From assembly GCA_951813565.1 (NCBI GenBank), contig OX638351.1:2368001-2432000 (forward strand): a stretch of DNA of 64,000 nt, given 5' to 3'. The notes below the pieces were generated by a model. That model was not told the DNA's origin and ran no database searches. It saw only the letters and a program-made list of their open reading frames with translations. The DNA is from an uncultured Poribacteria bacterium. GTDB lineage: Bacteria; Poribacteria; WGA-4E; WGA-3G. Each line of letters opens with the position of its first letter. The first letter of the stretch is position 1. Positions 16,635 to 36,460 of this stretch are shown here, one piece after another. A program made the position numbers and the translations under genes.

Positions 16635-17594
16635 ATGAAATTCAAGATACTGATACCTTTGATTATCGTTGGCATTATAGTGATTATATTTGCCTCAGGT
16701 GCGTTCTATATTGTAAAAGAAGGTGAACAGGTTGTTATCACTGAATTTGGTCGCCCGGTGGGTGAACCCATTGTCGATGCGGGTTTAAAGATAAAGACAC
16801 CATTCATTCAACAGGTACATCGCTTTGAGAAACGCATCATGGAGTGGGACGGATCCCCAAACCAAATACCAACGAAAGATAAGAGATTCATCTGGCTTGA
16901 TACCACAGCACGCTGGCGGATAAAAGACGCTCTCATCTTCTATCAAGCACTCGGAACAGAAGTACTTGCACAATCACGACTTGATGATATTATCGATTCC
17001 GCCGCGCGGGATTTGGTAACAGCACATATGTTAATTGAAGTTGTGCGAAATTCAAACAGAGTGTTAGAACTTGATGCGGAAATGCTTGGAGAAGAGGAAG
17101 GTCAAACCAAGGAACAGTTAGAAGAGATACAGATTGGCAGAGAGGAAATTACACAAAAAATCCTTGAAAAAGCAAGCGAGGCAGTACCACGATTCGGCAT
17201 AGAACTTGTTGATGTACGCATAAAACGGATCAACTATGTAGATGAAGTCCGACAGAAAGTCTTTGACCAAATGATTTCTGAACGTCAACGTATCTCTGAG
17301 AAATACAAATCGGAGGGTGAAGGCGAAGCGGCGAATATCATGGGGCAGAAACAGAAGGAGTTGGAGCGTATACAATCAGAGGCATACAAGGAAGCGGAAC
17401 AGCTTAAAGGAGCTGCTGATGCGCAAGCCATCCAGATTTATGCGGAAGCGCACGGCAAAGACCCAGAATTTTTCGCCTTTCTTCAAACTTTAGAAACCTA
17501 TCGCAAATCTACTAACGCAAGTACGAAACTCATCTTGACAACAGATAGTGAGCTTTATAAATATCTCAAGGATAGCCAAGCACAAAAGCGTTAA
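16635..17594 (+). CDS. hflC: FtsH protease modulator HflC
   Basis: GLKIKTPFIQ, PTKDKRFI, ELVDVRIKRI, MISERQRI, DPEFFAF. Confidence 0.92.
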   Translation: MKFKILIPLIIVGIIVIIFASGAFYIVKEGEQVVITEFGRPVGEPIVDAGLKIKTPFIQQVHRFEKRIMEWDGSPNQIPTKDKRFIWLDTTARWRIKDALIFYQALGTEVLAQSRLDDIIDSAARDLVTAHMLIEVVRNSNRVLELDAEMLGEEEGQTKEQLEEIQIGREEITQKILEKASEAVPRFGIELVDVRIKRINYVDEVRQKVFDQMISERQRISEKYKSEGEGEAANIMGQKQKELERIQSEAYKEAEQLKGAADAQAIQIYAEAHGKDPEFFAFLQTLETYRKSTNASTKLILTTDSELYKYLKDSQAQKR

Positions 17595-17626
17595 CTGGTG
17601 CTGAACAGGATTTCTAATAGGAGTTC

Positions 17627-17685
17627 GTAGGTTGGGCAGAGCGTAAGCGAAACCTAATGCTATGAATGCCTTTATGGCATTTCGC
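17627..17685 (+). repeat. GTAG REP hairpin followed by a degenerate 36-bp AATCAAC-family hairpin element
   Basis: GTAGGTTGGGCAGAGCGTAAGCGAAACCTAA then TGCTATGAATGC-CTTTATG-GCATTTCGC. Confidence 0.6.
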
Positions 17686-17859
17686 GGATTTTTGGAACTT
17701 GGTGTTGATTCGCGGAGTAAATATTTACACACTTTTGCGAACATATTAACTTGAGGTTTAGTCTTTTTTGTGGTATAGTATACGTGAGTGAAAAATATGA
17801 GATCCACCACGGTTGCAACCGTTATAAAGTGAACACTTAAGCAAATGGCTAAAGAAGAG

Positions 17860-17944
17860 AGGGTGTGTAAATATTTGGTTACATAGGTTCAATTTGCAAT
17901 GATTACGCGGCGTTTTCCACTGTAGGGCGGGGTCCCTGTGCCCC
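17860..17944 (+). mobile_element. Truncated copy of MITE-A (one end only)
   Basis: Near-identical to the reverse complement of about 62342-62426; begins with TIR AGGGTGTGTAAA. Confidence 0.8.
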
Positions 17945-18176
17945 ATAGCCGTCAATTTAAGGATATACCCTCTTGTGGGAGTGAATCAACGCAGCATGCG
18001 CGTCCGGCATGCTGCCAAATCAACGCCAAATGCGACGAGTGCCATACGCGCGCTCGGCGTTGATTCTGCTTTTGGCATTTGTCGGGTTTTCAACCTCGAT
18101 AAGTACATATAAATCGGGCTTATAAAGCCCTCCCACAAGAGGCAATCTGGTAATTTTTTCTTAAATTGACATCCAC
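17945..18176. mobile_element. MITE-B inserted in a REP hairpin
   Basis: Ends ATAGCCGTCAATTTAAG / CTTAAATTGACATCCAC, related to the TIRs at 62154 and 62336; contains an inverted REP pair. Confidence 0.65.
17982..18083. mobile_element. Three 34-bp AATCAAC-hairpin elements (two tandem, one nested in reverse)
   Basis: 17982-18015 (+); 18016-18033 plus 18068-18083 (+); 18034-18067 (-). Removing all 102 bp restores a 26-nt REP. Confidence 0.8.
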
Positions 18177-18236
18177 TGAATGCCAAAAGGCATTCATAGC
18201 GTTGATTTGGGTTTCGCTTTGCTCTATCCGACCTAC
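18177..18236 (-). repeat. GTAG REP carrying a truncated 36-bp-type AATCAAC element
   Basis: Minus strand: GTAGGTCGGATAGAGCAAAGCGAAACC followed by CAAATCAAC-GCTATGAATGCC-TTTT-GGCATTC. Confidence 0.65.
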
Positions 18237-18253
18237 GCGAATGCTTGCGTAGA

Positions 18254-18871
18254 TCAAAACTCCCACTGCAACAACGTTACACGATTATGCCATACAAGCA
18301 CTCCCATCGCGGTGCCTATGGCTGCTCCAGTCAACACATCCGACGTATAATGTCGCCCAAGATAGATACGCGAAAAACCTACCAATCCCGCGCCGATATA
18401 TAACGGTATTCGCCACTTCGGATACCGATACCCAAGAATCGTTGCTGCGCTAAAAGCAATTGTCGCATGTCCTGATGGCAGAGATGGATTCCCAAGGGTT
18501 TCATCAAGAGGGCGTTTTCTGCGAGTCAACCGTTTTAGCCCGTACGTCATCACCCCTGCCCCGATATATGCGGAGGATAACAGCCTTCCTGTATTCCGAT
18601 GGTCCTCATCTCCGTAAGCCATGAGCAAAATAGATAATCCCATGATTGAACGGTAATGCCCGAACTCTGAGATGCCTTCCATAACTGTCCACATCGGTTC
18701 GTTATGTGGAGGTGCGTCGTAGACACGATCAAAAAGCTGCTGATCCCATCGCGCTAAGATATTGTCGGCATTCGCATCTAAACCTGTTGCCAACCAGCAG
18801 AAAAAGAATACGTAGATTAGCAGTGTTTGTTTTTTCGGATAAAAAGATCTTGATTTTATAGAAAGAACCAT
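18254..18871 (-). CDS. PAP2-family membrane phosphatase
   Basis: Motifs KRLTRRKRP, SLPSGH, SRIYLGRHYTSDV. Confidence 0.92.
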   Translation of the reverse strand: MVLSIKSRSFYPKKQTLLIYVFFFCWLATGLDANADNILARWDQQLFDRVYDAPPHNEPMWTVMEGISEFGHYRSIMGLSILLMAYGDEDHRNTGRLLSSAYIGAGVMTYGLKRLTRRKRPLDETLGNPSLPSGHATIAFSAATILGYRYPKWRIPLYIGAGLVGFSRIYLGRHYTSDVLTGAAIGTAMGVLVWHNRVTLLQWEF

Positions 18872-18957
18872 AATTATTTATGCTCACCCCTCAAGTAAAT
18901 CGGGCTTACAAGGTTTCCCTCCCACAAGAGCACTTTTTGATAATTGAATGTCTCCGA

Positions 18958-20406
18958 CTACCACGGTGCTTGACGTTCAGGTAGCGGGTCCACCGTCCAT
19001 GCCATTCGGTGGATTAGACGCTCTTGCATTTCCAGTTTAACACCCGTGTAATCCGCATGATTCCAGAGGTTGTGTGTTTCTTGTGGGTCTGCCTCCAGAT
19101 CATAGAGTTCACCGCCATCTGTGCCGTGCGCCACAACTAACTTATACCTTTCGCTCCGCACCATTGTAGCGTTCGCAGCGGGTTCCCGATGCCATCCCAT
19201 CGCGTTGTAATACTCGCAATAGATGTCGTCGCGATGCGAATCCAAACTTTTTTCGCCTGTTAGCATTGGCAGAAGACTTTGCCCCTGCATCCCTGGGTAA
19301 CGCTCCAAATTGCTTGCTTCCAAGAGTGTTGGTGCTAAATCCACCAATTCCACGAGCGCATCCGAACGCGCTCCGTTATTCGACATCCCCGGTCCGGAGA
19401 TAATCAGCGGCACGCGGATGGCAGGTTCATAAAAATAGGGTCCTTTCAGATAGATGCCGTGGTCGCCGAGCATTTCTCCGTGGTCAGAGGTAAAAATTAC
19501 AATCGTGTTTTCTCGCTGCCCCGTTTCCTCTAAAAAGTCAAGCAGCCTCCCAATTTGCGTGTCAATGACGTCAATCATTGCCCAATATGCAGCGGTTACC
19601 CAACGGTGGTCTGATTCGTTCATTTCTTGGTACGGATAACCCGACTTTCCACCATAAGCACCACCGTTGTCAATCTGTTGCCAAATCGGTTTATTTTCAA
19701 GTTCACCTTCAACATAGTTCGGTAACGGAATATCGTCTAATATTTCGCGGTATCGTTCTAATGCTGCTAACGGAGGATCAAATGCATGGTGCGGGTCAAA
19801 CATATTTACAGAGAAAAGCCACGGTTGCTTAAACCGTTCTGCGCTGCTGATGAACGACATTGCACGTTCAATACTCCAAGTTGTCTGGCTGTGTTCCTCA
19901 GATGGAATCACGCGGACGTATTTTGAATCGGCAAACGGTGTGCTATCTCGGCGCAGCCCCTTATCTGTTAACCACTGAATATAATCGTGTGTAAACCATG
20001 CATCACTCGGATCGTGCGACCAAAAGAATTGGTCGTAGCCATCGTCAATCCGCTGTTCTGTGCCTTTGCAGAAGCGTGGATTGCACGGCGCAAGGTGAAG
20101 TTTACCTGCCAACCCATTTATGTAGCCAGCATCTTGGAGCAGTTTCGTCACAAGTACTTCATCTGGTGGAATTGCCTGTCCATTTTGCCTGCATCGTGTT
20201 GTACGCGGGTATCGTCCTGTGAGGAAACTTGCCCTGCTCGGTGTGCAGACAGGACTCTGTGAGTAAGCGTATTCAAATAGTACACCTTCTTGGGCAAGAT
20301 TGTCTAAATTCGGTGTTTGGACATAAGGGTTTCCGTAGCAACCTAAGGTGTCAAATCGTTGTTGGTCGCTACATATCCAGAGTATGTTAGGTAGGTTTTT
20401 ATGCAT
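18958..20406 (-). CDS. Sulfatase (Cys-type formylglycine)
   Basis: PNILWICSDQQR, CTPSRASFLTG, GKLH, FTSDHGEMLGDHG. Confidence 0.95.
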   Translation of the reverse strand: MHKNLPNILWICSDQQRFDTLGCYGNPYVQTPNLDNLAQEGVLFEYAYSQSPVCTPSRASFLTGRYPRTTRCRQNGQAIPPDEVLVTKLLQDAGYINGLAGKLHLAPCNPRFCKGTEQRIDDGYDQFFWSHDPSDAWFTHDYIQWLTDKGLRRDSTPFADSKYVRVIPSEEHSQTTWSIERAMSFISSAERFKQPWLFSVNMFDPHHAFDPPLAALERYREILDDIPLPNYVEGELENKPIWQQIDNGGAYGGKSGYPYQEMNESDHRWVTAAYWAMIDVIDTQIGRLLDFLEETGQRENTIVIFTSDHGEMLGDHGIYLKGPYFYEPAIRVPLIISGPGMSNNGARSDALVELVDLAPTLLEASNLERYPGMQGQSLLPMLTGEKSLDSHRDDIYCEYYNAMGWHREPAANATMVRSERYKLVVAHGTDGGELYDLEADPQETHNLWNHADYTGVKLEMQERLIHRMAWTVDPLPERQAPW

Positions 20407-22024
20407 CTACTTCTGTCTCTGTTTGTTTAGATTTTCGGTATCGGTAGAATGTCCATATACCAGAGGCAATTATGAGAACCAACAGACAGACTATGCCGAT
20501 ATTAATAATATTGCGCCAAGGATTTAGCTGCCACAAACGCTGTCCAGCTAATTTAGCAGCGGTACTCCCTTTTTCGGCTTTTAATTTTACCTGTTTCCAA
20601 TACTTTTTGACAAGGTCCGGCTGTTGATACGCTTCAGCTAATTTCGCTGTGACAACAAAATACTTAATATCTTGAACTTTGGAACGATCAACAGCATCGG
20701 CAAAAGTCGTAAACAACAAGACCGTTAAATCTTCCGACATCGGTGGGAAATCTGTCGTCAACTCAATACCATTTTGGAAGGCTGTTACTGCTTTTTGATG
20801 GTCATTCCGACTAAATTCAAGTTCTGCAATCTCAAACCATGTTTTTTTCACTAACTGTATCGATTGTTCTATCGCAGTGTAACCATCAAACGTGAAAGTT
20901 GCTGAACCGTGATAAAAATCCGCTTGTTTTGCATAGAGTGTATAATTCGTTCCTGGCGTTAGCATATTTGAGGCTTGCCAGTCTTGAAATGAATAAGTTC
21001 CATCTTCTCCTACAACTGCGACATATTCAGTTCCATCAATTGAAATTTGTGTATCAACAACGGACACATCGGAGGGACCGGTAACAGTGCCAAAAACTGA
21101 AATCGGTTTGAGTGCCCAAGCAAAATTTACGCTTTCACCTTGTGTTAACTTCAATTCAGCAGTTTTAGCCTCTGGACTATTATAGCCCACCTTTCTAACA
21201 GAGACAGTATAGGTTCCCTGCTGTAAGCCGTCTGTGAAAAGCTTAGGTGTCAATCCACTTTCTTTTTCATTTAGTAGAATTTGCGCTCCGTCTGGAAATG
21301 TAGTGACTTTAATGGCAGGGCTGAGTCTCATTACCGTTTCCTCAACATTCCCTGTGGGCGCGAAAATTGCGCGTTCAAAAGCGGTGTTTGTCTGTAGCTG
21401 TTGATATATTTCTATAATACTGATGTGTCTGTTATCATCTGCATCAATTTTTTGTTGAGACAAGGCATCAATCAGGGACTCAAGAAAGGCATTCTTACCT
21501 GCTGTAGAAGGTTGGATAACGTTTAGCGCCGCAGTACCAAGAGTTTCTCTATTCGCATAGTAAATGCCCAGATTCTCTTCGTTTGCATAACCATCAACGA
21601 TTACAAGCGTGCGATCCACACCTGTCCCTTGTAGCCATTGATTCAAAACAGAATCTTGGATAGTTTCTCCCGATTGTGTTGAAAGGTACATAGCGTTTCC
21701 TCCACGCAGTTTAGACACTTCACCATAATAAAGAAAGATAAAGGCATCTATTTTCCCGCTCCTGTTGCCGATATCAGCCAAGAATATCTGTATTTCATCT
21801 TTGGTCGCTTGGTCACCTGTAAGGTTGTGTATGTGAGCCCGAGAGACCTTTCCTTTCTCTATTAACAGTTTGTTTAAAGTGTTAAACAACGCTTGCGCAT
21901 CAGCATCAGGCGTCGTATCAACCATAAGCCAAAACGTCCCTGAATCGCTGGGTTCAGTAGAAACTGTTTCGATAATAAAAAAAGAGGTTAAAAGTATGAG
22001 GACAATAATTTTTTGTTTGGGCAT
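20399..22024 (-). CDS. Membrane-anchored PEGA-domain protein with a degenerate caspase-like N-terminal domain
   Basis: Signal peptide; ATKDEI...FIFLYYGEV...LVIVDGY...DADDNRHISIIEIY; PEGA motif VTTFPDGAQILLN..GLTP; C-terminal TM followed by basic residues. Confidence 0.7.
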   Translation of the reverse strand: MPKQKIIVLILLTSFFIIETVSTEPSDSGTFWLMVDTTPDADAQALFNTLNKLLIEKGKVSRAHIHNLTGDQATKDEIQIFLADIGNRSGKIDAFIFLYYGEVSKLRGGNAMYLSTQSGETIQDSVLNQWLQGTGVDRTLVIVDGYANEENLGIYYANRETLGTAALNVIQPSTAGKNAFLESLIDALSQQKIDADDNRHISIIEIYQQLQTNTAFERAIFAPTGNVEETVMRLSPAIKVTTFPDGAQILLNEKESGLTPKLFTDGLQQGTYTVSVRKVGYNSPEAKTAELKLTQGESVNFAWALKPISVFGTVTGPSDVSVVDTQISIDGTEYVAVVGEDGTYSFQDWQASNMLTPGTNYTLYAKQADFYHGSATFTFDGYTAIEQSIQLVKKTWFEIAELEFSRNDHQKAVTAFQNGIELTTDFPPMSEDLTVLLFTTFADAVDRSKVQDIKYFVVTAKLAEAYQQPDLVKKYWKQVKLKAEKGSTAAKLAGQRLWQLNPWRNIINIGIVCLLVLIIASGIWTFYRYRKSKQTETEVDA

Positions 22025-22114
22025 TTACTTGGACCTAACGTGAGTTTGATAAAAATAGTATTGTGTGACAGCAGGAATCCCTCTTGATAGAGTGAGCTAA
22101 GCAAAACCATTATA

Positions 22115-22143
22115 AGTATATTATAAACAGATGTTGATGTCAA
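22115..22143 (-). promoter_or_regulatory. Putative sigma70 promoter for the PEGA/sulfatase operon
   Basis: Minus strand TTGACA-N17-TATACT. Confidence 0.6.
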
Positions 22144-22257
22144 GGAACATATTATTGGTCTTTGATCCGCACCTCTTGCTAAAAACTACAACTTTTGCTA
22201 AAATACCCTATCAATAACAAAAGCGATATATCCGAATGCCTAATATCTGATAAAACA

Positions 22258-22938
22258 ATGCACAACATAGTCACCGGCACCCTTTACCTCGTCAGCACAC
22301 CGATCGGAAATTTAGAGGACATCACTCTACGCGCACTACGTATCCTCAAAGAGGTTGACCTTATTGCTGCTGAAGACACCCGACAAACACGCAGATTGTT
22401 AACACACTATGAAATCAAAACCCCACTCACAAGTTATTTTGAAGGCAACCAACAGACGAAATCCGAAAAATTGATCGCACGACTGAAAGCAGGAGAATCC
22501 GTTGCCCTTGTATCAGATGCTGGCACGCCAATAATTTCTGACCCAGGTTACCCGCTTCTACAAGAATGCATCGCTGAAGCCTTACCAATCGTGCCGATAC
22601 CAGGTCCATCGGCTATTCTTGCGGCGGCGGCTGTGTCGGGTCTACCGCTGCATAACTTTACCTTTGAAGGTTTTCTCTCACCAAAATCGGGAAAACGGAA
22701 ACGTCAATTAACACAACTTGCAGACGAAAAACGAACGTTAATTCTCTTTGAATCACCACATCGGCTCCGTCGTTTTCTCGAGGATGCTCTTGATGTGATG
22801 GGGGAACGCAACATTGTCATTGCCCGTGAATTGACCAAACGGTTTGAAGAGATTTTTCGCGGAAATATCAGCCAAGCACTGGAAAAATTCCAGTCTACTG
22901 AACCGCGCGGGGAATTTACTATTGTTATTGGAGCATAA
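22258..22938 (+). CDS. rsmI: 16S rRNA (C1402-2'-O)-methyltransferase
   Basis: LYLVSTPIGNLEDITLRA, AEDTR, SDAGTP.ISDPG, FESPHR, ARELTK, RGEF; start uncertain. Confidence 0.95.
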   Translation: MHNIVTGTLYLVSTPIGNLEDITLRALRILKEVDLIAAEDTRQTRRLLTHYEIKTPLTSYFEGNQQTKSEKLIARLKAGESVALVSDAGTPIISDPGYPLLQECIAEALPIVPIPGPSAILAAAAVSGLPLHNFTFEGFLSPKSGKRKRQLTQLADEKRTLILFESPHRLRRFLEDALDVMGERNIVIARELTKRFEEIFRGNISQALEKFQSTEPRGEFTIVIGA

Positions 22939-22940
22939 AA

Positions 22941-23882
22941 TTGTCTAACAAAAAGATCAAAAACATTGCCGTAATCGGTGCAGGATTGATGGGACACGGC
23001 ATCGCACAAGAATTCGCATGTGCGGAATACAATGTTAAACTTCATGACATTACCAAAGAAAAATTAAATAATGCCCGCGTACAGATTGGCAAAAACCTAA
23101 CACTACTCGCCGAAAACGGTGTTATTGAAAAGACAAGCATCCCTGAAACGATGCGGCGTATTCAGACCACAGCCGAACTCGCTACATCCGTGGAAACTGC
23201 TGATTTTGTCGTTGAGGCTGTATCCGAGAATCTACCCCTAAAACAGCAGATTTTTGCGGAATTAGATACTTTGTGTCAACCGCATACAATCTTGGCGAGC
23301 AACACAACAGCACTAATGCCCAGCCAGATAGGTGCAAACACGAAACGCACCGATAAGATACTTAATACGCACTATTTTAATCCACCTTACCTGATTCCGC
23401 TTGTTGAACTAATTCGCAGCCCTGATACATCCGATGAAACCGTGTTTGTGACGTTTGATCTCCTTACCTCCATTGGCAAAACACCGGCGATTATTGAAAA
23501 AGAGGCACTCGGTTTTGTAGGGCCGAGGCTACAAGCCGCACTCATTCGAGAAGCGTTTGCAATTGTAGAGCAGGGCATCGCCAGTGCTGAAACGGTTGAC
23601 CTTGTTGTACGCAACAGCTTTGGTAGGAGACTCAGTGTCGCAGGTCCATTTGAAGTCTTTGAACTTGCAGGATGGGATTTGGTGCTTGATGCCTTTGAAG
23701 AACTCTACAAAGACTTGAACAGTTCTCCGGAAATCAATCCGCTCCTCAGAAAAATGGTTGAATCCGATAAGCTCGGAGTGAAGTCAGGTGAAGGTTTTTA
23801 TCAATGGTCTGAGGAACGACAACAAGTACTTCGCGACCGAATGAGTCAGGCATTGATTCGTGCTATTCAGCAAGATGAATAA
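22941..23882 (+). CDS. 3-hydroxyacyl-CoA dehydrogenase family protein
   Basis: VIGAGLMGHGIA, VVEAVSE, ASNT, HYFNPP, LGVKSGEGFY. Confidence 0.92.
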   Translation: MSNKKIKNIAVIGAGLMGHGIAQEFACAEYNVKLHDITKEKLNNARVQIGKNLTLLAENGVIEKTSIPETMRRIQTTAELATSVETADFVVEAVSENLPLKQQIFAELDTLCQPHTILASNTTALMPSQIGANTKRTDKILNTHYFNPPYLIPLVELIRSPDTSDETVFVTFDLLTSIGKTPAIIEKEALGFVGPRLQAALIREAFAIVEQGIASAETVDLVVRNSFGRRLSVAGPFEVFELAGWDLVLDAFEELYKDLNSSPEINPLLRKMVESDKLGVKSGEGFYQWSEERQQVLRDRMSQALIRAIQQDE

Positions 23883-23968
23883 TTGGTAGAGAACTTATGG
23901 GTTAAGTAGTTGCCTCCTGTGAACAAGTTTTGCAACTCTAATCTACGACATTTCTGGACTATCAATAA

Positions 23969-24643
23969 ATGTCCAAAAAAAATCTCCGTAAAACATTCAC
24001 ATTCGTCATAGTTGGAATCGCAATTCTCTGCCTGATACTATTCTTTAGGCAGATTCAAGGATTTCTTCTTGAACTGATCGCAGCATTCCGGAACATTGAA
24101 ACAGTCCGTGAATATATCGCAGGTTACGGGCTGTTTGCTCCGCTCATTTCAGCGACTCTCATGATCTTTCAGAGTGTCATCGCGCCGTTGCCTGCATTCC
24201 TCATCACAATAGCGAACGGTGCGCTCTTCGGATTCTGGTGGGGTATGCTCCTATCTTGGAGCAGTGCTATGCTTGGTGCTGCTCTCTGCTTCTACATTGC
24301 CCGCTTTCTCGGTGCTAAACATGTTGCTCGAATCGTCAGTCAACCCGTTGTCAACAAAACCGATCAGTTCATTCAAACATACGGTAACTATGCAATCCTG
24401 ATTGCCCGCCTTATCCCGTATATCCCATTCGATGTTGTCAGCTATGCCGCAGGATTGACACGGATACAGTTCATCGGTTTCTGGCTTGCCACTGGCATCG
24501 GTCAACTTCCCGCAACCGTTGTTTATACCTACCTTGGCAACAGAATCTCTACTCACACAAATTTAATGCTATTTGGTTTCGGTATTGCGATATCCGTTTC
24601 GATTGTGTTATGGTTAGTAAAGAAGCGAAAACCTCTTGATTAA
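23969..24643 (+). CDS. TVP38/TMEM64 (DedA/VTT) membrane protein
   Basis: QSVIAPLPAF, FYIARFLG, ARLIPYIPFDVVSYAAGL. Confidence 0.9.
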   Translation: MSKKNLRKTFTFVIVGIAILCLILFFRQIQGFLLELIAAFRNIETVREYIAGYGLFAPLISATLMIFQSVIAPLPAFLITIANGALFGFWWGMLLSWSSAMLGAALCFYIARFLGAKHVARIVSQPVVNKTDQFIQTYGNYAILIARLIPYIPFDVVSYAAGLTRIQFIGFWLATGIGQLPATVVYTYLGNRISTHTNLMLFGFGIAISVSIVLWLVKKRKPLD

Positions 24644-24723
24644 CCTTAGGATAGGAATCTATCCTGCCATTTGTTTAGGCACACCAGATATAGCAAGCAC
24701 TAACACCAGTAGCCATAAACCAA

Positions 24724-24752
24724 TTGACATCAATCCCACTTTAAGGTAAATT
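24724..24752 (+). promoter_or_regulatory. Putative sigma70 promoter
   Basis: TTGACA-N17-TAAATT upstream of ATG 24798. Confidence 0.45.
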
Positions 24753-24797
24753 CTCTGCATAACAACGTATTACCCTTTTTAAAAAAGGAATATAATT

Positions 24798-25766
24798 ATG
24801 ATTCGAATAGGTGTTATTGGAGTAGGTGGCATGGGCAATGGCCATTGCAACTCACTTCCCAACGTAGAAAATTGTGAATTTGTAGGTGTAGCAGACTTAC
24901 GGATCGACGCTGCAAAAGCTGTCGCCGAAAGGCACAACATCCGTGCATTCCAAGACTATCAAGAACTCTTACCACTTGTTGACGGTGTCGTTGTGGCGAC
25001 GCCGCCTGTAGTACATACCGAAGTTGTCGTTGACGCTGCAGAAGCAGGCGTACACGCCTTTTGTGAAAAACCGCTCTCTTTAACACTTGATGAGGCGGAC
25101 AAAATGATCGAAGCATCGGACAAAGCTGGCACACATCTCATGGTCGGTCAAGTTCTCCGCTTCTATCCTGTGCACGAACTCGGTAGGAAGATGGTGGATA
25201 ACGGTGACATCGGAGATGTCGTATATATAGAAACTGATTATACTGGTCCCTATAATGCGCCACGCGGTAGACCGGATAGTTGGTACGGCACCGTTGGTGG
25301 ATTGTTAGAAAATGGCATTCATAAATCCGACCTAATCAATTGGTTCGGAGGCACCGCACTCACCGTCGCAGCGGAAGTCGGTAGCTTCTCTGGACATGAT
25401 GATTGGGAGGATTATACTGTTTCACTGATCCGTTACGATACCGGTACCGTCGGTATTCTCCGTTGGGGTGGTTTCCTCGGTGCCCGCGGCACAAATGAAA
25501 CAATCATTGACGGCACCGAAGGGTCACTACGTCTTGACATGGCAGCGGATCTTGCATATCTCAAAAAACGTGGTGGCGACTGGCAGGAAGTCGTTCCTGA
25601 CCGCTCCGGTCCGAGCCATGTCGTCGGCGAACTCACACATTTTGTCGAATGCATCCGGGACAACAAAACCCCAATGATTGATGGCAGAGGCGGCAAACAT
25701 GCCGTAGCAATTGTCTTAGCCACGTATGAATCGGCGAAAGAGAAAACGAAGGTTTCTATCGGTTAG
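24798..25766 (+). CDS. Gfo/Idh/MocA family oxidoreductase
   Basis: IGVIGVGGMG, HAFCEKPL, GGLLENGIH. Confidence 0.92.
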   Translation: MIRIGVIGVGGMGNGHCNSLPNVENCEFVGVADLRIDAAKAVAERHNIRAFQDYQELLPLVDGVVVATPPVVHTEVVVDAAEAGVHAFCEKPLSLTLDEADKMIEASDKAGTHLMVGQVLRFYPVHELGRKMVDNGDIGDVVYIETDYTGPYNAPRGRPDSWYGTVGGLLENGIHKSDLINWFGGTALTVAAEVGSFSGHDDWEDYTVSLIRYDTGTVGILRWGGFLGARGTNETIIDGTEGSLRLDMAADLAYLKKRGGDWQEVVPDRSGPSHVVGELTHFVECIRDNKTPMIDGRGGKHAVAIVLATYESAKEKTKVSIG

Positions 25767-25777
25767 TCAGCTCCTGA

Positions 25778-25810
25778 AAACTGTAGGGACGGGCATCGTC
25801 CCTACAGTTT
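25778..25810. repeat. Perfect 14-bp-arm inverted repeat (REP-derived, possible terminator)
   Basis: AAACTGTAGGGACG-GGCAT-CGTCCCTACAGTTT just after the stop codon. Confidence 0.7.
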
Positions 25811-25834
25811 GCAAGTGTCAAAAGGAAGTTTCAG

Positions 25835-27097
25835 ATGAAAAAGACACTGTTCTTTACCTTTTTAATCCTTGGTATTATTTCGTTTTATTTGATTCCGCTT
25901 CCTATTTCAGCCAGAGATGTTACGGAAACATTTCGTTGCTATGATTCTCCACAGTGGCATCTACCTGAAGGAGTGAAAGCACGCATCGGCAAAGGAAGCA
26001 TTATTAGGTTACAGTATTCTCCGGATGGTAATGTATTAGCCGTTATGAGTTCTATGGGGATTTGGCTTTACGATGCACACAGCGGTGAAGAACGTGCCCT
26101 TCTCTCAGGACATACTGGATTAATTTTAGGCATGTCATTCAGTCCAGATAGTCGCATAATTGCGAGTGGTGGAACGGACGGCACCACTCGAATGTGGGAT
26201 ATTGCTACTGGTAAACAAAAGCACACGCTCACAGTGCCAAGATTCAGAATTGGTGATGTATCGTTCAATTCAGACGGGAAAACGCTTGCAAGCGTAAGTG
26301 TTTCTGCTATGTCAAAACGTTTTATCGGTTGGGCTGACCCATATATCCAAACAATTGGAATTGCAAGTACAAGATCTGAAATTGAACTGTGGGATGTTGC
26401 CACAGGAAAACATAAGGAAACTATTGAGACCGGGGATTTGCGCTTCAACATCTTATTCAGTCCTGACGGAAAAACACTTGCGAGTGTATATGATAAAAAT
26501 ATTAGCTTATGGGATGTTACCACAGGAAAGTGCAAGCAGATACTTGGTGGTAATACGTCGCGGATTAGAAGCATGTCTTTCAGTTTAGACAGTCACACAT
26601 TTGCGAGTGGGAGCTGGCAAGAAATTCACGTATGGGACGTTGCCATAGATAAACAAAATGAAATCGTCTCTATAAGACATCCCAGGCTGACCCTCAAAGG
26701 GCATACTTCGTATGTCAATAATTTGTCTTTTAGTCCGGATGGGCAGACGCTCGCAAGTGGGAGTGAGGACAAAACTATCCGGATGTGGGATATAGCCACT
26801 GGTGAGCAACGACAAACGTTCGTCCTTCAAGATTTACCAAATCAATTTGATGCTGTTGGGGATGTCGCTTTCAGTTCGGATGGTCGTATTCTTGCTTGTA
26901 GTATGTGGAAGGGACCTATCTATTTGTGGAATGCGTTCACAGGAGAGCGAAAGAAAATACTCATAGGACATACAAAGCAGGTAGTTCACCTGTCATTCAA
27001 CTCAGACAGTCACACTTTGGCAAGTGAGAGCGAAGATGGCACAGTGCTTGTGTGGGACATTGCTTCTGTATTTAAACCTACAGATAAAACCAAATAG
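25835..27097 (+). CDS. Secreted WD40-repeat protein
   Basis: Signal peptide; repeats GHT...SFSPDG..LASGS.D.TIRMWD. Confidence 0.93.
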   Translation: MKKTLFFTFLILGIISFYLIPLPISARDVTETFRCYDSPQWHLPEGVKARIGKGSIIRLQYSPDGNVLAVMSSMGIWLYDAHSGEERALLSGHTGLILGMSFSPDSRIIASGGTDGTTRMWDIATGKQKHTLTVPRFRIGDVSFNSDGKTLASVSVSAMSKRFIGWADPYIQTIGIASTRSEIELWDVATGKHKETIETGDLRFNILFSPDGKTLASVYDKNISLWDVTTGKCKQILGGNTSRIRSMSFSLDSHTFASGSWQEIHVWDVAIDKQNEIVSIRHPRLTLKGHTSYVNNLSFSPDGQTLASGSEDKTIRMWDIATGEQRQTFVLQDLPNQFDAVGDVAFSSDGRILACSMWKGPIYLWNAFTGERKKILIGHTKQVVHLSFNSDSHTLASESEDGTVLVWDIASVFKPTDKTK

Positions 27098-27173
27098 CGA
27101 AGTTGCCCACGGCGTAAATCAACACACCAGCGACAAAGAATTCAAGACTTGGAAAATTGGACAGAGAGTATAT

Positions 27174-28264
27174 CAGGACTTACGCAGTTTTGAAAATTAT
27201 TGAAGGATTAGAGAGTTGATGTCGCATGTAATCATCCAATAAACTATCTTTGAGTCGGTAAATCGTTTGAGAGGCTTTCCGTGCAGCACGCATTAGACAG
27301 ACCCAGACCTGAAAACAACAGGCAATATGGTTTCGTTGGGCACGCAACTTACGACACTGACATTTATCAATACCTGTAACCTGTTTGATTTCACGGTGAA
27401 GTTGCTCAATCTTCCAGCGAACCCGACACTCGTTTTTGGTCGCAGTCGCATCCGATTGAGATAAATCGTTTGTCACAATATATTCCGTGCGTCCGTTTTC
27501 AGATACAATCCGGAACAACTTCACTTGATGCCCTTTCGGAAAGTTTTTGATGTGAACCCGTTTCCCCTGTTGCTTTTCTGTCTGTGTCCAAGATAAATCT
27601 TCTACATGCTGGTGTGGTTCAACACCATCCGTATCATTCACAAGTCGGTTTCGTTTCAGAGGCGCATAGTAAACCTTGGAAAGTTTCTCAATCGCTTTCA
27701 TCACTTGCATACAAACATACCAAGCATCCATCAACACGGTCCGAAACGGGAGTTGTTTTTTCAAGACAGCATTATGCAACATATCCAGTAAATGGTCTAT
27801 TTTGGTCTTACCATCATGCGATTTGTCAAAAATGCGATAATCAATGACCCAATACTCGCCAGTTTTTGGGTTGACATAGAGACACGTGACAATACCGATG
27901 CCACGAATAACTTTTTTGTCGCTACCACTCCATTGATGGTAAACAGCTTCTATCTGTTTTGAAAACTTCTTAGAGAGAACGACATCATCAAAGGCAATGT
28001 ATCCATCTTCATCAAACTCAATGTCCGGTTTTACAGATTTCCAGAGTTCGCTTGAAGGAATGTTTTCGTTCCTCAGGTATCGATTGAGTTGATCGTGGCT
28101 CCACTTCTCAGTATGGTCTGCGAAATAGGTTTGTGTGAAATTAGTGAAACTTGCTATCAGAAATTGACAATAGTTGGAATGTAAGTTTTGCTTCTTTTCA
28201 GGAAGTGTAAATGAAATCATAATCCAATAGTATAACACAATTTTTGATTATTGCGTAAGTCCTG
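27174..28264 (-). mobile_element. IS701-family insertion sequence, apparently intact
   Basis: 13-bp perfect TIRs CAGGACTTACGCA/TGCGTAAGTCCTG, 5-bp TSD TATAT, single transposase ORF. Confidence 0.9.
27180..28238 (-). CDS. DDE transposase (IS701-like)
   Basis: YCQFLI..SHD.LNRYL, AFDDVVL, VLMDAWY, RWKIEQLHREIKQ..G...CQCRK; exact start uncertain. Confidence 0.9.
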   Translation of the reverse strand: MLYYWIMISFTLPEKKQNLHSNYCQFLIASFTNFTQTYFADHTEKWSHDQLNRYLRNENIPSSELWKSVKPDIEFDEDGYIAFDDVVLSKKFSKQIEAVYHQWSGSDKKVIRGIGIVTCLYVNPKTGEYWVIDYRIFDKSHDGKTKIDHLLDMLHNAVLKKQLPFRTVLMDAWYVCMQVMKAIEKLSKVYYAPLKRNRLVNDTDGVEPHQHVEDLSWTQTEKQQGKRVHIKNFPKGHQVKLFRIVSENGRTEYIVTNDLSQSDATATKNECRVRWKIEQLHREIKQVTGIDKCQCRKLRAQRNHIACCFQVWVCLMRAARKASQTIYRLKDSLLDDYMRHQLSNPSIIFKTA

Positions 28265-28397
28265 TATATTTTATGTTATACTGACGTTACAGTTTCAACT
28301 AGGCATATATCCAACAAAAACATCTAATCTCATAATACCGGCACGCGCTAAAAAGCGATTTATGAGATAACTTCCTAAAGACAACAACGGACAAATT

Positions 28398-31280
28398 ATG
28401 ATGAAAAAACTGATTATTATTTTAATGTTAATAGCCTTGCTTTACGTATCGAGCATCGCACAGAAAATTCCTCAATCAGAAAACACAGCACACAAACCTG
28501 ATATAGCAGTTGATACTTACCACCCGGACGACAACGTTGGACATCCCACGTTCATGAGTCCACACGCTTCACCAATTGTAATAAGCGATGGCTATGTTTT
28601 TGTCGTGAATACACCCGCAGATACAGTTGACATCATTGACACCGACACGCATGCCATTGTAAAACGTATCAACGTCGGAATTGATCCCGTCAGTATTGCT
28701 GTCCGTCCCGATGGTAAAGAGGTGTGGGTAGCGAATCATGTTTCGGATTCGGTAAGCGTTATCGATACAAATTCGACGAGTCCGACGTGGCTTCAGATTA
28801 TTGATACGGTACAGGACTTTGACCCCGAAACCCGTGCCACCCGTTTTGACGAACCTGTAGGCATCGCTTTTGCCAGTAATGAGAAAGCCTATGTTGCCCT
28901 CTCCTCCGAAAATCAGATTGCCATTATCAACGTAACCACACGCCAAGTGGACAAAAGACTTGACATCACAGCGCAAGACCCGCGCGCTATCACCGTCCGT
29001 GGGAATCGCCTCTACGTCATTCCTTTTGAGTCTAACAACAAAACGCAGCTTTCAGGTGCTCCCGGTCCGATTGATGGCAAAATGATTACTTTTGATGCAC
29101 AAAAACATGTCATTGACAAAAATAATGTTCTGTCAATAGGGGCAGTGTTAGACATCATCAAACATCCCAAGGTGCCGGACCGTGACTTGTACGTTTTTGA
29201 TACTAAGACAGACGAACTCGTTGAGACTGTTGACACACTCGGCACACTGCTTTATGGCTTGACAGTTGATTCCAAAGGACAAGTATTCATTGCGCAGACA
29301 GACGCTCGTAACGATGCCAACGGTTTGTCAGGAACAAAAAATCATGGTCTGGCAGAGTTGGAGAATAGGGCATTTTTGAACCAGATTACAAGCGTCAGTT
29401 TCAACAGCGATTCTGCTAAAGAGCCAAATTTTATTGATCTTGAACCATTGCCACCAGAGCATCCGAAACAAGGTGAGGCCTTAGCAACACCTTTTGCGAT
29501 TCAAATCAGTGATGACGATACCACGTTGGTTGTATCTGCGGCAGGGTCAGATAAACTCTTTACTGTTGATGCTGCCAGCGGGAAGATTCTTGGGCGCGTT
29601 GATGTTGACGCGGTGCCGCGAGGCATTGCACTTGAGTCTAATGTTGAAGGTAAACCTTCCCGTGCTTGGGTTTTCAATGCGGTGGCAAACACGGTATCCC
29701 TCGTCAATCTGTCAGATCTCATTCGTCCAGAGGCAGTTGAGAGTATTCCATTAGAAGATCCTACACATCCCGCCGTTAAGCGTGGACGAATCGTCTTCAA
29801 CGATGCCGATGCATCTACTACCGGCACTTTTTCTTGTGCAAGTTGCCATCCTGATGGACATACCGATCAACTGCTCTGGGTATTAGAAACACCGATTGTC
29901 ACAGGTGCGAAACAGATTATGCCGCGTTCAACGATGCCTGTCCGTGGCTTGCGCGACACTGAACCTTATCACTGGGATGGTATTCCTGGTGACCCTTACG
30001 GAGGCAATAACAGCGCGAACGTTTATAAAAAAGTTGAACCCAACAGCATCCTTGGCAACCCGGAAAGTAGTGTTCGACATCTTATAGACGGAAGTCTTGC
30101 TACGACGATGAGCATGGTAGGTGTTGCGGTTGAAAATGATGAGGGCAAACGTGGCGCATTGACAAAAGTTGAACGTGACGATTTGGCGATATTCCTACTG
30201 AATGTTCTCTATCCACCCGCACAAAGACGTGCCTACACAAACGTTTTGTCAAACGAAGCACAAAAAGGATTCAAGTTATTCCATATTGACGGTGACCTAC
30301 AAGGAAAACCTGAACCGAATGTCTGCGGTGACTGCCATCGCATGCCGTTTTGGGTGAGTACCAACACACCAGGGACCGGAATGGAAGCCCCCACATGGCG
30401 CGGTGCTTATGACCGTTGGCTTATCCTTCCACAGGGAAGACTAAACTTAATTGATTTTGATTTCTATCAACGGGTTGCAGAACGTGGGATTCCTGAACAA
30501 CGTGTATGGCAATTCTCGTGGGCTGGCAGAAAACGTTTCGACCCCGTCTGGAACATGGTATTGGAAGGCAGTACCGGTTTTTCCGGTGCTTTCGCTCGGC
30601 AAGTTACACTCAATAAGGAATCTGCCCTCACCCGACCTACTCGTGACATATTGAACACATTGGAACTATCTGCAAAGGAAGGCGGCATTATGCTTCTCGG
30701 CGAAGGTGTGCTCATTGATGGCGACAAATCTACACCTGTTACACTTCAGTTCAAAGAGGGTAAATATGTCAAAAAAGATGATGACCACAAAACCTTTACC
30801 CGAGCACAATTGGTTTTGTTCGCTTCTGATGGTAAATTCGTTGGCACTTTTACTGCGCGGCATGGCGCAAAGGTGGGTATTGATAATCCACAGCCAGGGA
30901 TTTGGACTTTAGGGCCAATTGAAGCACAACGCGGACATCAGGATTTTCCTGTTCTGTCACCTGATAATACCACGATGACAGTCAGTGGTCGGCACATCCA
31001 CGAAGGTGCACATCTTTACGTTAATGGAAGGCGAGTAGATGGCACCATTACCTCTCAACAAGGAAAGTTTTTTGACTTAGATTTCACCGTTAAATTAGAA
31101 AAATTGCCAGAAGTTGGTATGCACTTACTCCAGATCCAAAATCCGGACGGGATGTTCAGTAACGACTTCATCTTCCATGTCGCTGAAGAAAAGAAGGGCG
31201 ATGACGCTAAAGTAAACTCTCGGAAATCTAAAAAAAGTGTTGAATTCCTAAAGCAAATTCTTGAAAAACCTAAGAAATAG
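28398..31280 (+). CDS. Secreted YVTN/YncE beta-propeller fused to a di-heme c-type cytochrome domain
   Basis: Signal peptide; VGIDPVSIAVRPDGKEVWVANHVSDSVSVID; heme motifs CASCH and CGDCH. Confidence 0.85.
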   Translation: MMKKLIIILMLIALLYVSSIAQKIPQSENTAHKPDIAVDTYHPDDNVGHPTFMSPHASPIVISDGYVFVVNTPADTVDIIDTDTHAIVKRINVGIDPVSIAVRPDGKEVWVANHVSDSVSVIDTNSTSPTWLQIIDTVQDFDPETRATRFDEPVGIAFASNEKAYVALSSENQIAIINVTTRQVDKRLDITAQDPRAITVRGNRLYVIPFESNNKTQLSGAPGPIDGKMITFDAQKHVIDKNNVLSIGAVLDIIKHPKVPDRDLYVFDTKTDELVETVDTLGTLLYGLTVDSKGQVFIAQTDARNDANGLSGTKNHGLAELENRAFLNQITSVSFNSDSAKEPNFIDLEPLPPEHPKQGEALATPFAIQISDDDTTLVVSAAGSDKLFTVDAASGKILGRVDVDAVPRGIALESNVEGKPSRAWVFNAVANTVSLVNLSDLIRPEAVESIPLEDPTHPAVKRGRIVFNDADASTTGTFSCASCHPDGHTDQLLWVLETPIVTGAKQIMPRSTMPVRGLRDTEPYHWDGIPGDPYGGNNSANVYKKVEPNSILGNPESSVRHLIDGSLATTMSMVGVAVENDEGKRGALTKVERDDLAIFLLNVLYPPAQRRAYTNVLSNEAQKGFKLFHIDGDLQGKPEPNVCGDCHRMPFWVSTNTPGTGMEAPTWRGAYDRWLILPQGRLNLIDFDFYQRVAERGIPEQRVWQFSWAGRKRFDPVWNMVLEGSTGFSGAFARQVTLNKESALTRPTRDILNTLELSAKEGGIMLLGEGVLIDGDKSTPVTLQFKEGKYVKKDDDHKTFTRAQLVLFASDGKFVGTFTARHGAKVGIDNPQPGIWTLGPIEAQRGHQDFPVLSPDNTTMTVSGRHIHEGAHLYVNGRRVDGTITSQQGKFFDLDFTVKLEKLPEVGMHLLQIQNPDGMFSNDFIFHVAEEKKGDDAKVNSRKSKKSVEFLKQILEKPKK

Positions 31281-31319
31281 TAATAAGCAAACGTATATCC
31301 ACAAGGAGGTAACGTTATT

Positions 31320-31436
31320 ATGGAAGGTTACGGTTTAGGTCTCAGCATAGGTTTAGCTGCCGTAATAGCATCTACAAGCGGTAACACTCGAAAGAAAGTT
31401 GAACGACAATTACGCAACGCAATGTTTGATGTATGA
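31320..31436 (+). CDS. Putative small protein (38 aa), not in the ORF track
   Basis: AAGGAGGT RBS; MEGYGLGLSIGLAAVIASTSGNTRKKVERQLRNAMFDV. Confidence 0.5.
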   Translation: MEGYGLGLSIGLAAVIASTSGNTRKKVERQLRNAMFDV

Positions 31437-31461
31437 AAGTAATTCTAAAACCTACTATAAA

Positions 31462-31785
31462 AACCTAAGTTGCTACCTATGTAGCACAAACTTTTAGTGG
31501 AGTGTCTACCGAAATTTTGCGGGTAAAGGTCGCGATTCGGAGATCGCTCCTACAGAACACCCCTCTTTGTAGGAGGGAACTCCGATTCCCGACTACTGAC
31601 ACGAATCGCAATTTTAGTGTAGACAGAACATTAGTTTGTGTCATAAGGGCGCAAACTGAAAGTGCTATCAACGGTATGAATGCCTTAATGGCATTCCCCG
31701 TGCTACAAAATCTATGCTAATAGTGAACTATCCGATTAAAAAGGTGTTTTTTATGTCAATTATCTTGTAGGTAGCAACTTGAGTT
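31462..31785. mobile_element. MITE with nested REPs, an inner MITE and a 36-bp AATCAAC-type element
   Basis: TIRs AACCTAAGTTGCTACCTA / TAGGTAGCAACTTGAGTT with 5-bp TSD ATAAA; inner element 31499-31629; hairpin insert 31664-31699. Confidence 0.8.
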
Positions 31786-31806
31786 ATAAAAGGAGGTTAT
31801 GGACAG

Positions 31807-32571: not shown

Positions 32572-32583
32572 GGGCCAAACTAA

Positions 32584-34029: not shown

Positions 34030-34440
34030 AATTGATTTGGAAGAGGCGTATTCGATTTTTTATCAATCTTTCGATTTAGATGATATCCATATTTTGAATT
34101 CATTTTATGCACTCTTTCCAATCTAATATTGTGTCTTATAATTATGAAAGGTATCACACACCATTGTTTTGGAAAACCATGTCAAGCATCTTGCGTAAGT
34201 CTGTTTCACTTTAGAACCACCTACACTTTTATTTGCGTTTTCCATTTCTATTCTGGTATACTATTTCATAACGAAATTTTGAGGCATGCGCTAACGCTGT
34301 AAAAATATATGTCAATCACGGAATGTCTATTATTCACTCAGTAATTGTTGCGTTGATTCAGACATCTCAGTTCAGACAATAAACTCCACACATTAAAAAA
34401 ATATTTTCAATCGGTCACTCAGATCTTTTTAACGAGGTCA

Positions 34441-35898: not shown

Positions 35899-36078
35899 AT
35901 TAAGGTGCGTCCTGAAACGACTGCGCAGTTGACCAATTATTCAAATCTATTTAACCAGAAACATGGATACCGTATCATTAGCAAATACCAGCGATGTGTA
36001 TTTTTATGAACTACGAGCAGATTTTATTTACCTTTGCACGAAGTGATTATTTTGAAGTAATAATGTAAGGACTCCTCA

Positions 36079-36125
36079 CTGCCCCATTTCGTGCAATCGG
36101 CATAAAGTCTGCCCCTTTTTGTGCA
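36079..36125 (+). promoter_or_regulatory. Tandem putative enhancer (bEBP) binding sites
   Basis: CTGCCCCATTTCGTGCA and CTGCCCCTTTTTGTGCA, 30 bp apart, upstream of a -24/-12 motif. Confidence 0.5.
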
Positions 36126-36161
36126 GTTCTCCAAAGAATCCAGCAGTCTCGTCTTGTTAAA

Positions 36162-36178
36162 CTGGCATAGAATTTGCT
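36162..36178 (+). promoter_or_regulatory. Putative sigma54 (-24/-12) promoter
   Basis: CTGGCATAGAATTTGCT, GG-N10-GC spacing, intergenic. Confidence 0.65.
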
Positions 36179-36202
36179 TTTATTGTATACGCATCTTAGT
36201 AT

Positions 36203-36460
36203 AACGACTTGTGCCAGTTAACATTTTGTTTTGTTGGTTTTCACATATATTTGCCTTTGTGCTATAAACATATCGTCCCTACCAAATCAACGCCAAATGC
36301 GCGTGTGGCATTTGGCGGGACTAAAGAGTGCTCGTCCAATCATTTTCTATAAACATATCGTCCCTACGGGACTGAAGAACATATAAATATATGATAATGA
36401 CTTACAAACATTTCTTTTGTGAAATAAAGTTCTACAAATGGTTATTTAGCACAACTCGTT
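36203..36460. mobile_element. MITE containing a REP doublet
   Basis: TIRs AACGACTTGTGC / GCACAACTCGTT, 5-bp TSD AGTAT. Confidence 0.8.
36283..36316 (+). mobile_element. 34-bp AATCAAC-hairpin element inserted in a REP
   Basis: CAAATCAAC-GCCAAATGC-GCGTGTG-GCATTTGGC; empty target copy at 36347-36377. Confidence 0.85.

What the first reader, a model, noticed from the sequence alone, without database searches (positions are those of the whole stretch)
17982..18083. Candidate ultra-small (34-bp) mobile element family: tandem and self-nested precise insertions
Seen: three units of exactly 34 bp with architecture 9-nt head (NRAATCAAC), 9-bp arm, 7-nt loop (GCnTnnG), 9-bp arm. E1 is TGAATCAAC-GCAGCATGC-GCGTCCG-GCATGCTGC. 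E2 is CAAATCAAC-GCCAAATGC-GCTTTTG-GCATTTGTC, split by E3. E3 is on the minus strand, AGAATCAAC-GCCGAGCGC-GCGTATG-GCACTCGTC. The stems differ in sequence but largely keep pairing (covariation). Removing E3 restores a 34-bp E2. Removing all 102 bp restores TTGTGGGAGGGGTTTTCAACCTCGAT, which matches the intact 26-nt REP arms at about 18112-18137 and 63967-63992. There is no target-site duplication and there are no terminal inverted repeats, so these are not MITEs, and they lack the GTAG head of REPs. The closest precedent I know is the very small mobile repeats (SDRs) of Nostoc, whose mechanism is unresolved. Inference: a non-autonomous element mobilised in trans as ssDNA or RNA, by an HUH/Y1 transposase, recombinase or reverse transcriptase, that targets hairpin DNA.
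Basis: partly seen in the sequence, partly recalled or inferred. Interest (0 to 1): 0.88.

Follow-up and report, generated by a model that had tools for sequence, protein, structure and literature searches.

The report
Tiny self-nesting mobile hairpin of Poribacteria
A 33-36-base piece of DNA, a short fixed leader plus a small hairpin, has inserted itself hundreds of times into other repeats, into itself and occasionally in frame into genes of sponge-symbiont bacteria, which makes it one of the smallest mobile DNAs seen, moved by an enzyme that is not yet identified.

Summary
The three units are exactly where described. They belong to a family with about 775 units in 485 clusters in this genome. 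It occurs in 93 of 99 other genomes of one Poribacteria family and in 3 of 51 genomes outside it. Mobility is supported: the host repeat carries 0-5 units at this site, and three genes are filled in frame in some relatives and empty in others. The stem-foot junction is fixed and brings a stem-closing G, while the leader-side junction loses 0-4 target bases. The 102-bp nest was probably partly copied with its host repeat. Best mechanism (inferred, about 0.4): a single-stranded hairpin moved in trans by a REP-type Y1 HUH enzyme. Three unit-rich genomes now lack any Y1 match. Reverse transcriptase and IS110 are disfavoured. The scan reported this family three times before, on other DNA of this genome. 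No paper was found in the searches named. Closest: Nostoc SDRs and tagged REPs.

The parts
17982..18015 (+). Unit E1: 2 variable leader bases, AATCAAC, 9-bp stem, 7-nt loop; the first unit inserted at the host site
   Evidence: z -2.8; a host copy with an E1-type unit alone is
18016..18033 (+). Unit E2, 5' part (leader CA + AATCAAC + left arm), added head-to-tail at the 3' foot of E1
18034..18067 (-). Unit E3, nested in E2 at the C^G between left arm and loop; the identical E3 occurs 12 times in the genome
18068..18083 (+). Unit E2, 3' part (loop and right arm)
18084..18084 (+). G after the stem; in intact units it pairs with the last leader C; at other sites it is absent from the empty target, so it is probably the unit's own last base
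   Evidence: (732 of 775)
17973..17981 (+). Left part of the interrupted GTGG-type REP-like arm (target)
18084..18100 (+). Right part of the interrupted REP-like arm
18113..18138 (-). Inverted partner arm of the REP doublet, uninterrupted
17861..18170 (.). Larger dispersed host repeat (REP composite); 19 near-full copies carry 0-5 units at this site
18175..18209 (-).
   Evidence: z -3.5
31664..31699 (+). Further unit (bulged 36-nt subtype, leader variant) in another REP family
36283..36316 (+). Further 34-nt unit at a clean C^G site next to a GTAG on the opposite strand
   Evidence: z -4.0
16635..17594 (+). Left flanking gene, SPFH/Band 7 family (HflC-like); context only
18254..18871 (-). Right flanking gene, PAP2 family; context only

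Best explanation
SHOWN: the unit is a self-contained mobile sequence of 33-36 nt. It has 0-2 variable bases ending mostly in a purine, then AATCAAC, then an imperfect hairpin closed by the leader's last C and a terminal G. It inserts singly into unrelated sites, grows tandem arrays at its own 3' foot, nests in its own loop, arm and leader, and is then also copied passively inside REP composites. The stem-foot junction is constant; the leader-side junction is ragged. INFERRED: it is a non-autonomous single-stranded substrate for a Y1 HUH nuclease-ligase of the REP-associated (RAYT/TnpA-REP) or IS200/IS605 type, acting in trans. The enzyme binds the bulged hairpin and the 5' leader, cuts with only 1-2 base specificity at the hairpin foot and in the target, and makes one exact strand transfer there. 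The other end is finished by a second loose cut or by host trimming and ligation, which explains the 0-4 base target losses and the variable leader bases. Insertion at C^G recreates a C^G at the unit's foot, which drives tandem growth. The unit would be a hitch-hiker on the host's REP machinery with no gene of its own.
For: Mobility: host alleles with 0-5 units; in-frame filled/empty genes in relatives; 137 context groups. Anatomy like Y1 substrates: 5' tag, irregular stem, conserved loop T (148 of 161 distinct cores) and bulged position 17. PMC8266576 (passages) describes bulge, loop and guide recognition and cuts at C|T and C|A. No target duplication. One precise and one ragged junction; PMC3333891 (passages) proposes variable cut sites and 3'-OH degradation for BIME diversity. 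The A of the REP GTAG tag is replaced by G-unit-G in at least five REP families, i.e. at C^T on the other strand. Y1 genes are in 20 of 24 congeners. The 20 of 40 genomes with a close relative of one G000 RAYT have more units (median 164 vs 77, Mann-Whitney p 0.002; post hoc, kin not independent).
Against: G001, G010 and G023 (the last a single contig) have no Y1 match with either model yet hold 78, 128 and 177 units. RAYT genes are flanked by their own GTAG-type REPs; a unit or remnant lay near only 4 of 30 loci. Y1 genes are also present in unit-free families. Known Y1 transposition is precise (recalled), and no single guide-pairing rule fits both junction classes. The lagging-strand bias expected for ssDNA transposition was not seen, but the genome's GC skew is too scrambled to test it. 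The RAYT correlation could reflect target abundance only.
Confidence: 0.42

Rival explanations
1. Nick-primed copy-in by host enzymes. An unidentified, family-wide, sequence-specific protein exposes or nicks the unit. A target 3'-OH primes DNA synthesis on a unit copy using 1-3 bases of microhomology (GG at the stem foot, C or G at the leader), and the strand returns to the target after the leader. No transposase is involved.
For: Leader bases track the left flank (C|CA in 54, G|TG in 19 of 137 groups). The right flank resembles donor flanks. Target deletions on one side. Units are abundant in genomes lacking Y1, RT or IS110. The family is in 37 of 37 other genomes of the genus drawn, as expected of a core-genome helper.
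Against: No candidate gene found. No conserved master locus in 16 low-copy genomes. 1-3 bases of homology cannot by themselves fix both boundaries.
Confidence: 0.28
2. RNA-templated (retro) insertion: a small hairpin RNA is reverse-transcribed at a nick, giving a precise primed end and a ragged far end.
For: The junction asymmetry resembles target-primed reverse transcription (recalled). Stems covary. G000 has two RT genes.
Against: RVT_1 matches in only 10 of 24 congeners, and none in G006, G012, G014 or G017, which have 263-476 half-unit matches. No sense bias to flanking genes (198 sense, 245 antisense). No Rfam family. No master locus.
Confidence: 0.1
3. Site-specific recombinase or integrase (IS110 bridge type, IS607 serine type, integron integrase, Cas1).
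For: No target duplication. Many targets are REPs, which IS110 members use (PMC12288879, search listing only). The leader matches the integron core consensus at 6 of 7 positions (consensus recalled). Unit length resembles CRISPR spacers; Cas1 is in 4 of 5 genomes.
Against: IS110 transposase domain found in 0 of 5 genomes with a working control. Targets share only 1-2 bases. Recombinases conserve target bases and Cas1 duplicates them (recalled), whereas here bases are lost. G006 lacks Cas1.
Confidence: 0.07
4. No independent mobility today: a few ancient insertions spread only as passengers of REP composites and by slippage and gene conversion.
For: Large context groups (142, 81, 70, 61 copies) are clearly composite amplifications. 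E3 is identical in 12 copies and the 102-mer occurs twice. Chimeric flanks and 14 two-headed forms point to recombination between copies.
Against: Does not explain single units in unique coding sequence that are empty in relatives, 95 singleton contexts, or lineage-specific targets in other genomes. It describes part of the copy number, not the origin of the sites.
Confidence: 0.13

Closest known systems
Small dispersed repeats (SDR1-8) of Nostocaceae (Elhai et al. 2008, Genome Res 18:1484). Paper not held; seen only through citing passages in PMC4390886, PMC5861425, PMC2884548 and PMC3116915; other details recalled.
   Same: Very short (about 20 bp), dispersed and tandem, probably mobile, precise insertion without a known enzyme, confined to one family of bacteria.
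   Different: Different sequence and phylum; 33-36 nt; fixed 7-nt tag plus bulged hairpin; one ragged junction with target loss; weak N^G target rather than a HIP1 octamer; heavy self-nesting. PMC5861425 notes SDR-like repeats were not found in HIP1-rich cyanobacteria outside Nostocaceae.
GTAG- and CGTC-tagged REPs, BIMEs and REPINs with RAYT/TnpA-REP (PMC3733652, PMC8266576, PMC3333891, PMC3116915; passages read)
   Same: Short stem-loop with a 5' tag, hundreds of mostly intergenic copies, occasional in-frame gene insertions. CGTC REPs likewise lack a flanking transposase.
   Different: Tag is AATCAAC. It moves as a monomer, not an inverted doublet; forms head-to-tail arrays; inserts into REPs and into itself; no gene is flanked by it as its cognate repeat.
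IS200/IS605 ends and their non-autonomous derivatives (Y1 TnpA)
   Same: Leader plus irregular hairpin, no terminal inverted repeats, no target duplication. The hairpin apex of the IS605 left ends in G000 resembles the bulged subtype's apex (by eye).
   Different: One hairpin only, a 9-nt leader, no 4-5-base target consensus, and imprecise leader-side junctions.
MITEs
   Same: Non-autonomous, dispersed, mostly intergenic.
   Different: No terminal inverted repeats, no target duplication, and half or less of the 70-300 bp size given in PMC3733652.

Membership tests
MITE | Terminal inverted repeats | tested here: not met
   Leader is single-ended; only 14 of 775 units are two-headed
MITE | Target-site duplication | tested here: not met
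   Net gain equals the core plus 2 or less; none at this locus. A 1-base shared C at C^G sites cannot be excluded.
GTAG/CGTC-tagged REP | GTAG or CGTC tag at the stem foot | tested here: not met
   Tag is AATCAAC
GTAG/CGTC-tagged REP | 20-40-bp stem-loop, high copy, mostly extragenic | tested here: met
   444 of 485 clusters outside called ORFs; most of the other 41 look like spurious ORFs or gene ends
REPIN/REPtron | Cognate RAYT gene flanked by the repeat; mobile unit is an inverted doublet | tested here: not met
   30 RAYT-like loci are flanked by other REPs; units insert as monomers
REPIN/REPtron | Cleavage by TnpA-REP | not testable with these tools
   Needs an in vitro assay
IS200/IS605 non-autonomous element | Two subterminal hairpins and a guide-specified 4-5-base target | tested here: not met
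   One hairpin; only position -1 (C 71, G 31 of 137) and +1 (G 114 of 137) are biased
IS200/IS605 non-autonomous element | Orientation bias to replication | tested here: inconclusive
   408 of 775, p 0.15, with scrambled GC skew; local-skew test also null
Nostoc SDR | Sequence relationship to SDR1-8 | not tested
   SDR sequences not available (paper not held); the pattern scan listed no cyanobacterial record among 80 shown
Nostoc SDR | Very small repeat with filled/empty alleles and no duplication | tested here: met
   it works like an SDR, but membership is not claimed
IS110-mobilised element | IS110 recombinase in the host and a specific target of about 14 bases | tested here: not met
   PF02371 in 0 of 5 genomes; diverse targets
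Retroelement | Reverse transcriptase co-occurring with the element | tested here: not met
   RVT_1 in 10 of 24 congeners; absent from four high-copy genomes
Curated RNA family | Rfam match at gathering score | tested here: not met
   Best 18.9 bits against a cut-off of 36 (window 17600-18300)

The most novel reading that the evidence does not exclude
A distinct class of minimal mobile DNA (33-36 nt, one tag plus one hairpin) moved not by any known transposase, reverse transcriptase or recombinase family but by an unrecognised enzyme inherited across one Poribacteria family. It writes a short defined sequence into targets with only 1-2 bases of specificity, exactly at one end.
Probability: 0.25. 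Interest if true: 0.92.

Novelty: new variant of a known kind. Interest (0 to 1): 0.72.

Why it matters
How very small bacterial repeats (REPs, SDRs, RPEs) spread is a long-open question; even for REPs the in vivo route is unproven (PMC8266576 abstract). This family offers hundreds of filled/empty pairs, a monomeric 34-nt substrate that can be ordered as one oligonucleotide, and a specific junction signature (exact stem foot, ragged leader side) that any candidate enzyme must reproduce. That makes the question directly testable. It also shows a third tier of parasitism (unit in unit in REP) and a source of 11-12-residue insertions in proteins.

Tried and rejected
Orthologous empty site for this exact locus: relatives are 76-92% identical in the flanking genes and mostly not aligned across the spacer, so it was not obtained. 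Strain-level polymorphism from public runs: 4 runs laid on window 17000-36900, all contigs; contigs break at the repeats and no joint cleanly skipped a unit; uninformative, and no expression evidence. Replication-strand bias: null but untestable because of scrambled skew. Gene flanked by units: 34 ORFs have units within 400 bp on both sides; by eye they are mostly housekeeping genes, with one cas1-like gene and no transposase (not scanned against Pfam). Master locus: 27 loci from 16 low-copy genomes share no common locus beyond sister-genome pairs. Phage carrier: two scans of viral contigs gave one hit each, both inside coding sequence and chance-like. IS91/Y2 transposase: 0 of 40, but the control also found nothing, so it is no evidence. 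Guide-pairing rules of IS608 type (recalled) fit the IS605 left ends by eye but not both unit junction classes. Automated net-length table: noisy for sites with one or two weak empty matches, and part of its output was cut; I relied only on rows with a clear paralogous empty form. Elhai 2008 could not be read, and its supplements were not seen. Delihas 2011 (PMC3184786) does not mention SDRs. Two further look-ups in earlier findings returned nothing.

Full report
1. Observation. The stretch 17982-18083 lies between an SPFH/Band 7 gene and a PAP2 gene. One search confirms E1 (17982-18015, +), E3 (18034-18067, -) and an E2 of 34 nt once E3 is removed (18016-18033 plus 18068-18083). Removing all 102 bp restores a 26-nt REP-like arm without duplication. 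The partner arm is at 18113-18138. It and the arm at 63967-63992 differ from the restored arm at 5 and 4 of 26 positions, but the exact empty junction core occurs 49 times in the genome. E1 folds better than shuffles (z -2.8); E3 does not (z +1.25).

2. Family size and range. The window's genome (G000, one contig, 5.43 Mb) has 2358 AATCAAC sites, 211 of them followed by a perfect 9-7-9 hairpin. Those 211 are a quarter of all 808 such hairpins. A flexible score finds 708 intact units and none in the reversed genome. Their cores are 32 nt (364), 33 nt with an 8-nt loop (132), or a bulged subtype of 33-34 nt (204), so full units are 33-36 nt. Peeling nested copies gives 775 units in 485 clusters, 79 of them interrupted by another unit. 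The window holds three more units (18175-18209, 31664-31699, 36283-36316). A leader-plus-arm pattern matches all 40 genomes of the genus, 18-755 times each, with controls of 0-4 (19 in one genome). A full-unit pattern matches 93 of 99 other genomes of the family and 3 of 51 genomes of eight other families; of those three, one holds an exact copy and two look like chance.

3. Structure. Of 113 distinct cores chosen without any pairing criterion at the variable positions, pairs 10:30, 11:29 and 12:28 pair in 85, 86 and 91%, against 60, 68 and 75% in shuffles; 0 of 1000 shuffles reached these values. The sequences are related, and arm-to-arm correction of near-palindromes could produce the same pattern, so this shows a maintained hairpin, not necessarily selection. 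Position 20 is T in 148 of 161 distinct cores, 18:23 is usually C:G, and position 17 is unpaired. The base after the stem is G in 732 of 775 units and pairs with the leader's last C.

4. Evidence of mobility. (a) The arm is part of a larger dispersed repeat of about 300 bp. Of 19 near-full copies, 5 are empty, 1 has one unit, 3 have two, 5 have three, 2 have four, 2 have five and 1 is rearranged. E3 is identical in 12 places and the exact 102-mer occurs twice, so this nest was probably assembled once and copied with its host. E2 has five T's (35 nt) in most paralogues. (b) I tested three unique in-gene sites, out of 41 clusters inside called ORFs, against five relatives. A lipoate-ligase-family gene has +36 nt in G000 and G052 and is empty in G017, G014 and G008. 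An 8-oxoguanine glycosylase gene has +33 nt in five genomes and is empty in G043. A DDE transposase gene has +36 nt in G000 and G014 and is empty in G052 and G043; it is a mobile gene, so these are not strict orthologues. All three keep the frame and none is a hairpin target. (c) The 775 units fall into 137 context groups, 95 of them singletons, though some are chimeras. In 86 of 137 groups a flank is repeated, against 32-38% of random intergenic positions. In G001 the main target is a non-palindromic direct-repeat family.

5. Junctions. Class I has leader CA at a C^G target and a clean gain of core+2, for example in three REP families with 92, 31 and 39 filled against 162, 21 and 133 empty motifs. 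It recreates C^G at the unit's foot, which explains head-to-tail growth such as E1-E2. Class II loses target bases on the leader side and brings its own terminal G. The A of the GTAG tag is replaced by G-unit-G in at least five REP families. Two bases are lost just after GTAG in another family, and one to four bases are lost in several hairpin loops. In G023 a terminal G appears where the empty target has T. The host site here is intermediate: a clean +34 with leader TG or CG. The base before AATCAAC follows the unit subtype in G000 (bulged subtype 41 A, 0 G; others 54 A, 47 G), so it belongs to the unit; the bulged subtype does carry G there in a sister genus. The empty alleles are inferred from paralogues, so a single site could mislead; the recurrence across families is the evidence.

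6. Enzyme. Reverse transcriptase matches 10 of 24 congeners and none of four high-copy genomes. IS110 is found in 0 of 5 genomes and Cas1 in 4 of 5; the Y2 search was uninformative. Y1 transposases match 20 of 24 congeners. G000 has IS605 TnpA copies and several RAYT-like genes. RAYT loci are flanked by their own REPs, with a unit or remnant near 4 of 30. Genomes with a close relative of one RAYT have more units (median 164 vs 77, p 0.002; post hoc, kin not independent). But G001, G010 and G023 have no Y1 match and 78-177 units. They also retain REPs, so loss of the enzyme after spread is possible. No master locus, no viral carrier, no Rfam family and no strand bias were found.

7. Mechanism. 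Shown: a self-contained unit, independent insertion, asymmetric junctions, and passive amplification in composites. Inferred (0.42): single-stranded mobilisation in trans by a Y1 HUH enzyme of the REP type. TnpA-REP recognises a 5' tag and a bulged hairpin, cuts at C|T or C|A, can act far from its binding site, and was proposed to diversify BIMEs through alternative cuts and 3' trimming (PMC8266576, PMC3333891; passages). The stem-foot junction corresponds to a cut after C on the antisense strand at most sites, including C^T inside the REP tag. Rivals are nick-primed copying by an unknown host-encoded system (0.28), passive spread only (0.13), retro-insertion (0.10) and a recombinase (0.07).

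8. Comparison and novelty. It works like the Nostoc SDRs (paper not held; known from citing passages in PMC4390886, PMC5861425, PMC2884548, PMC3116915 and recall) and looks like a REP with a new tag (PMC3733652, passages). It fails the membership tests for MITE, REP/REPIN, IS200/IS605 derivative, IS110 passenger and retroelement. Eight literature searches, including Poribacteria with repeat terms and the tag sequence itself, listed no description of this family; most subscription papers are not covered. The scan had noted the family three times on other DNA of this genome; I re-derived the claims independently.

9. Verdict. Real and mobile; a new variant of the ultra-small mobile repeats; enzyme unknown. 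Interest 0.72.

Noticed in passing
window 17659-17686 (+): Decayed, leaderless copy of the bulged subtype inside a GTAG REP just downstream of the SPFH gene.
   Followed up: no
G000 genome-wide: A second module, a leaderless unit-type hairpin followed by ATG, sits inside the 3' arm of units. There are 99 matches in several stem variants, plus a few symmetric forms with an AATCAT head on both sides; possibly a sister element.
   Followed up: partly
G000, 14 sites; L143, L149: Two-headed units (leader on both sides of one hairpin); most join flanks of different hosts, and a few are fold-back palindromes, suggesting recombination or self-priming at the hairpin.
   Followed up: partly
G000:C1 about 2679122-2679291; G023:C1 1044374-1044612: Perfect tandem arrays of 5 and 7 identical units, compatible with slippage or rolling-circle copying.
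   Followed up: no
L061-L089: The genus carries several RAYT subfamilies, each flanked by different GTAG-like REP families (GTAG, GTGG, TTGG, CTGG variants); a rich REPtron system.
   Followed up: partly
G000: IS605-type elements with 29 related TnpB-like ORFs; left ends follow TTAG or TTAA with matching guide bases; many other multi-copy IS-like genes; GC skew is scrambled.
   Followed up: no
G000:C1 3988991-3992061: cas1 next to a reverse transcriptase gene, with unit-bearing repeats on both sides; a second, unrelated RT of 515 codons at 811737-813284.
   Followed up: no
G000:C1 3913161-3913196: In-frame unit inside a DDE transposase gene, splitting what looks like a conserved motif; effect on activity unknown.
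   Followed up: partly
L265 (G151:C13): One exact bulged-subtype unit in a genome of another family; transfer or mis-binning.
   Followed up: no
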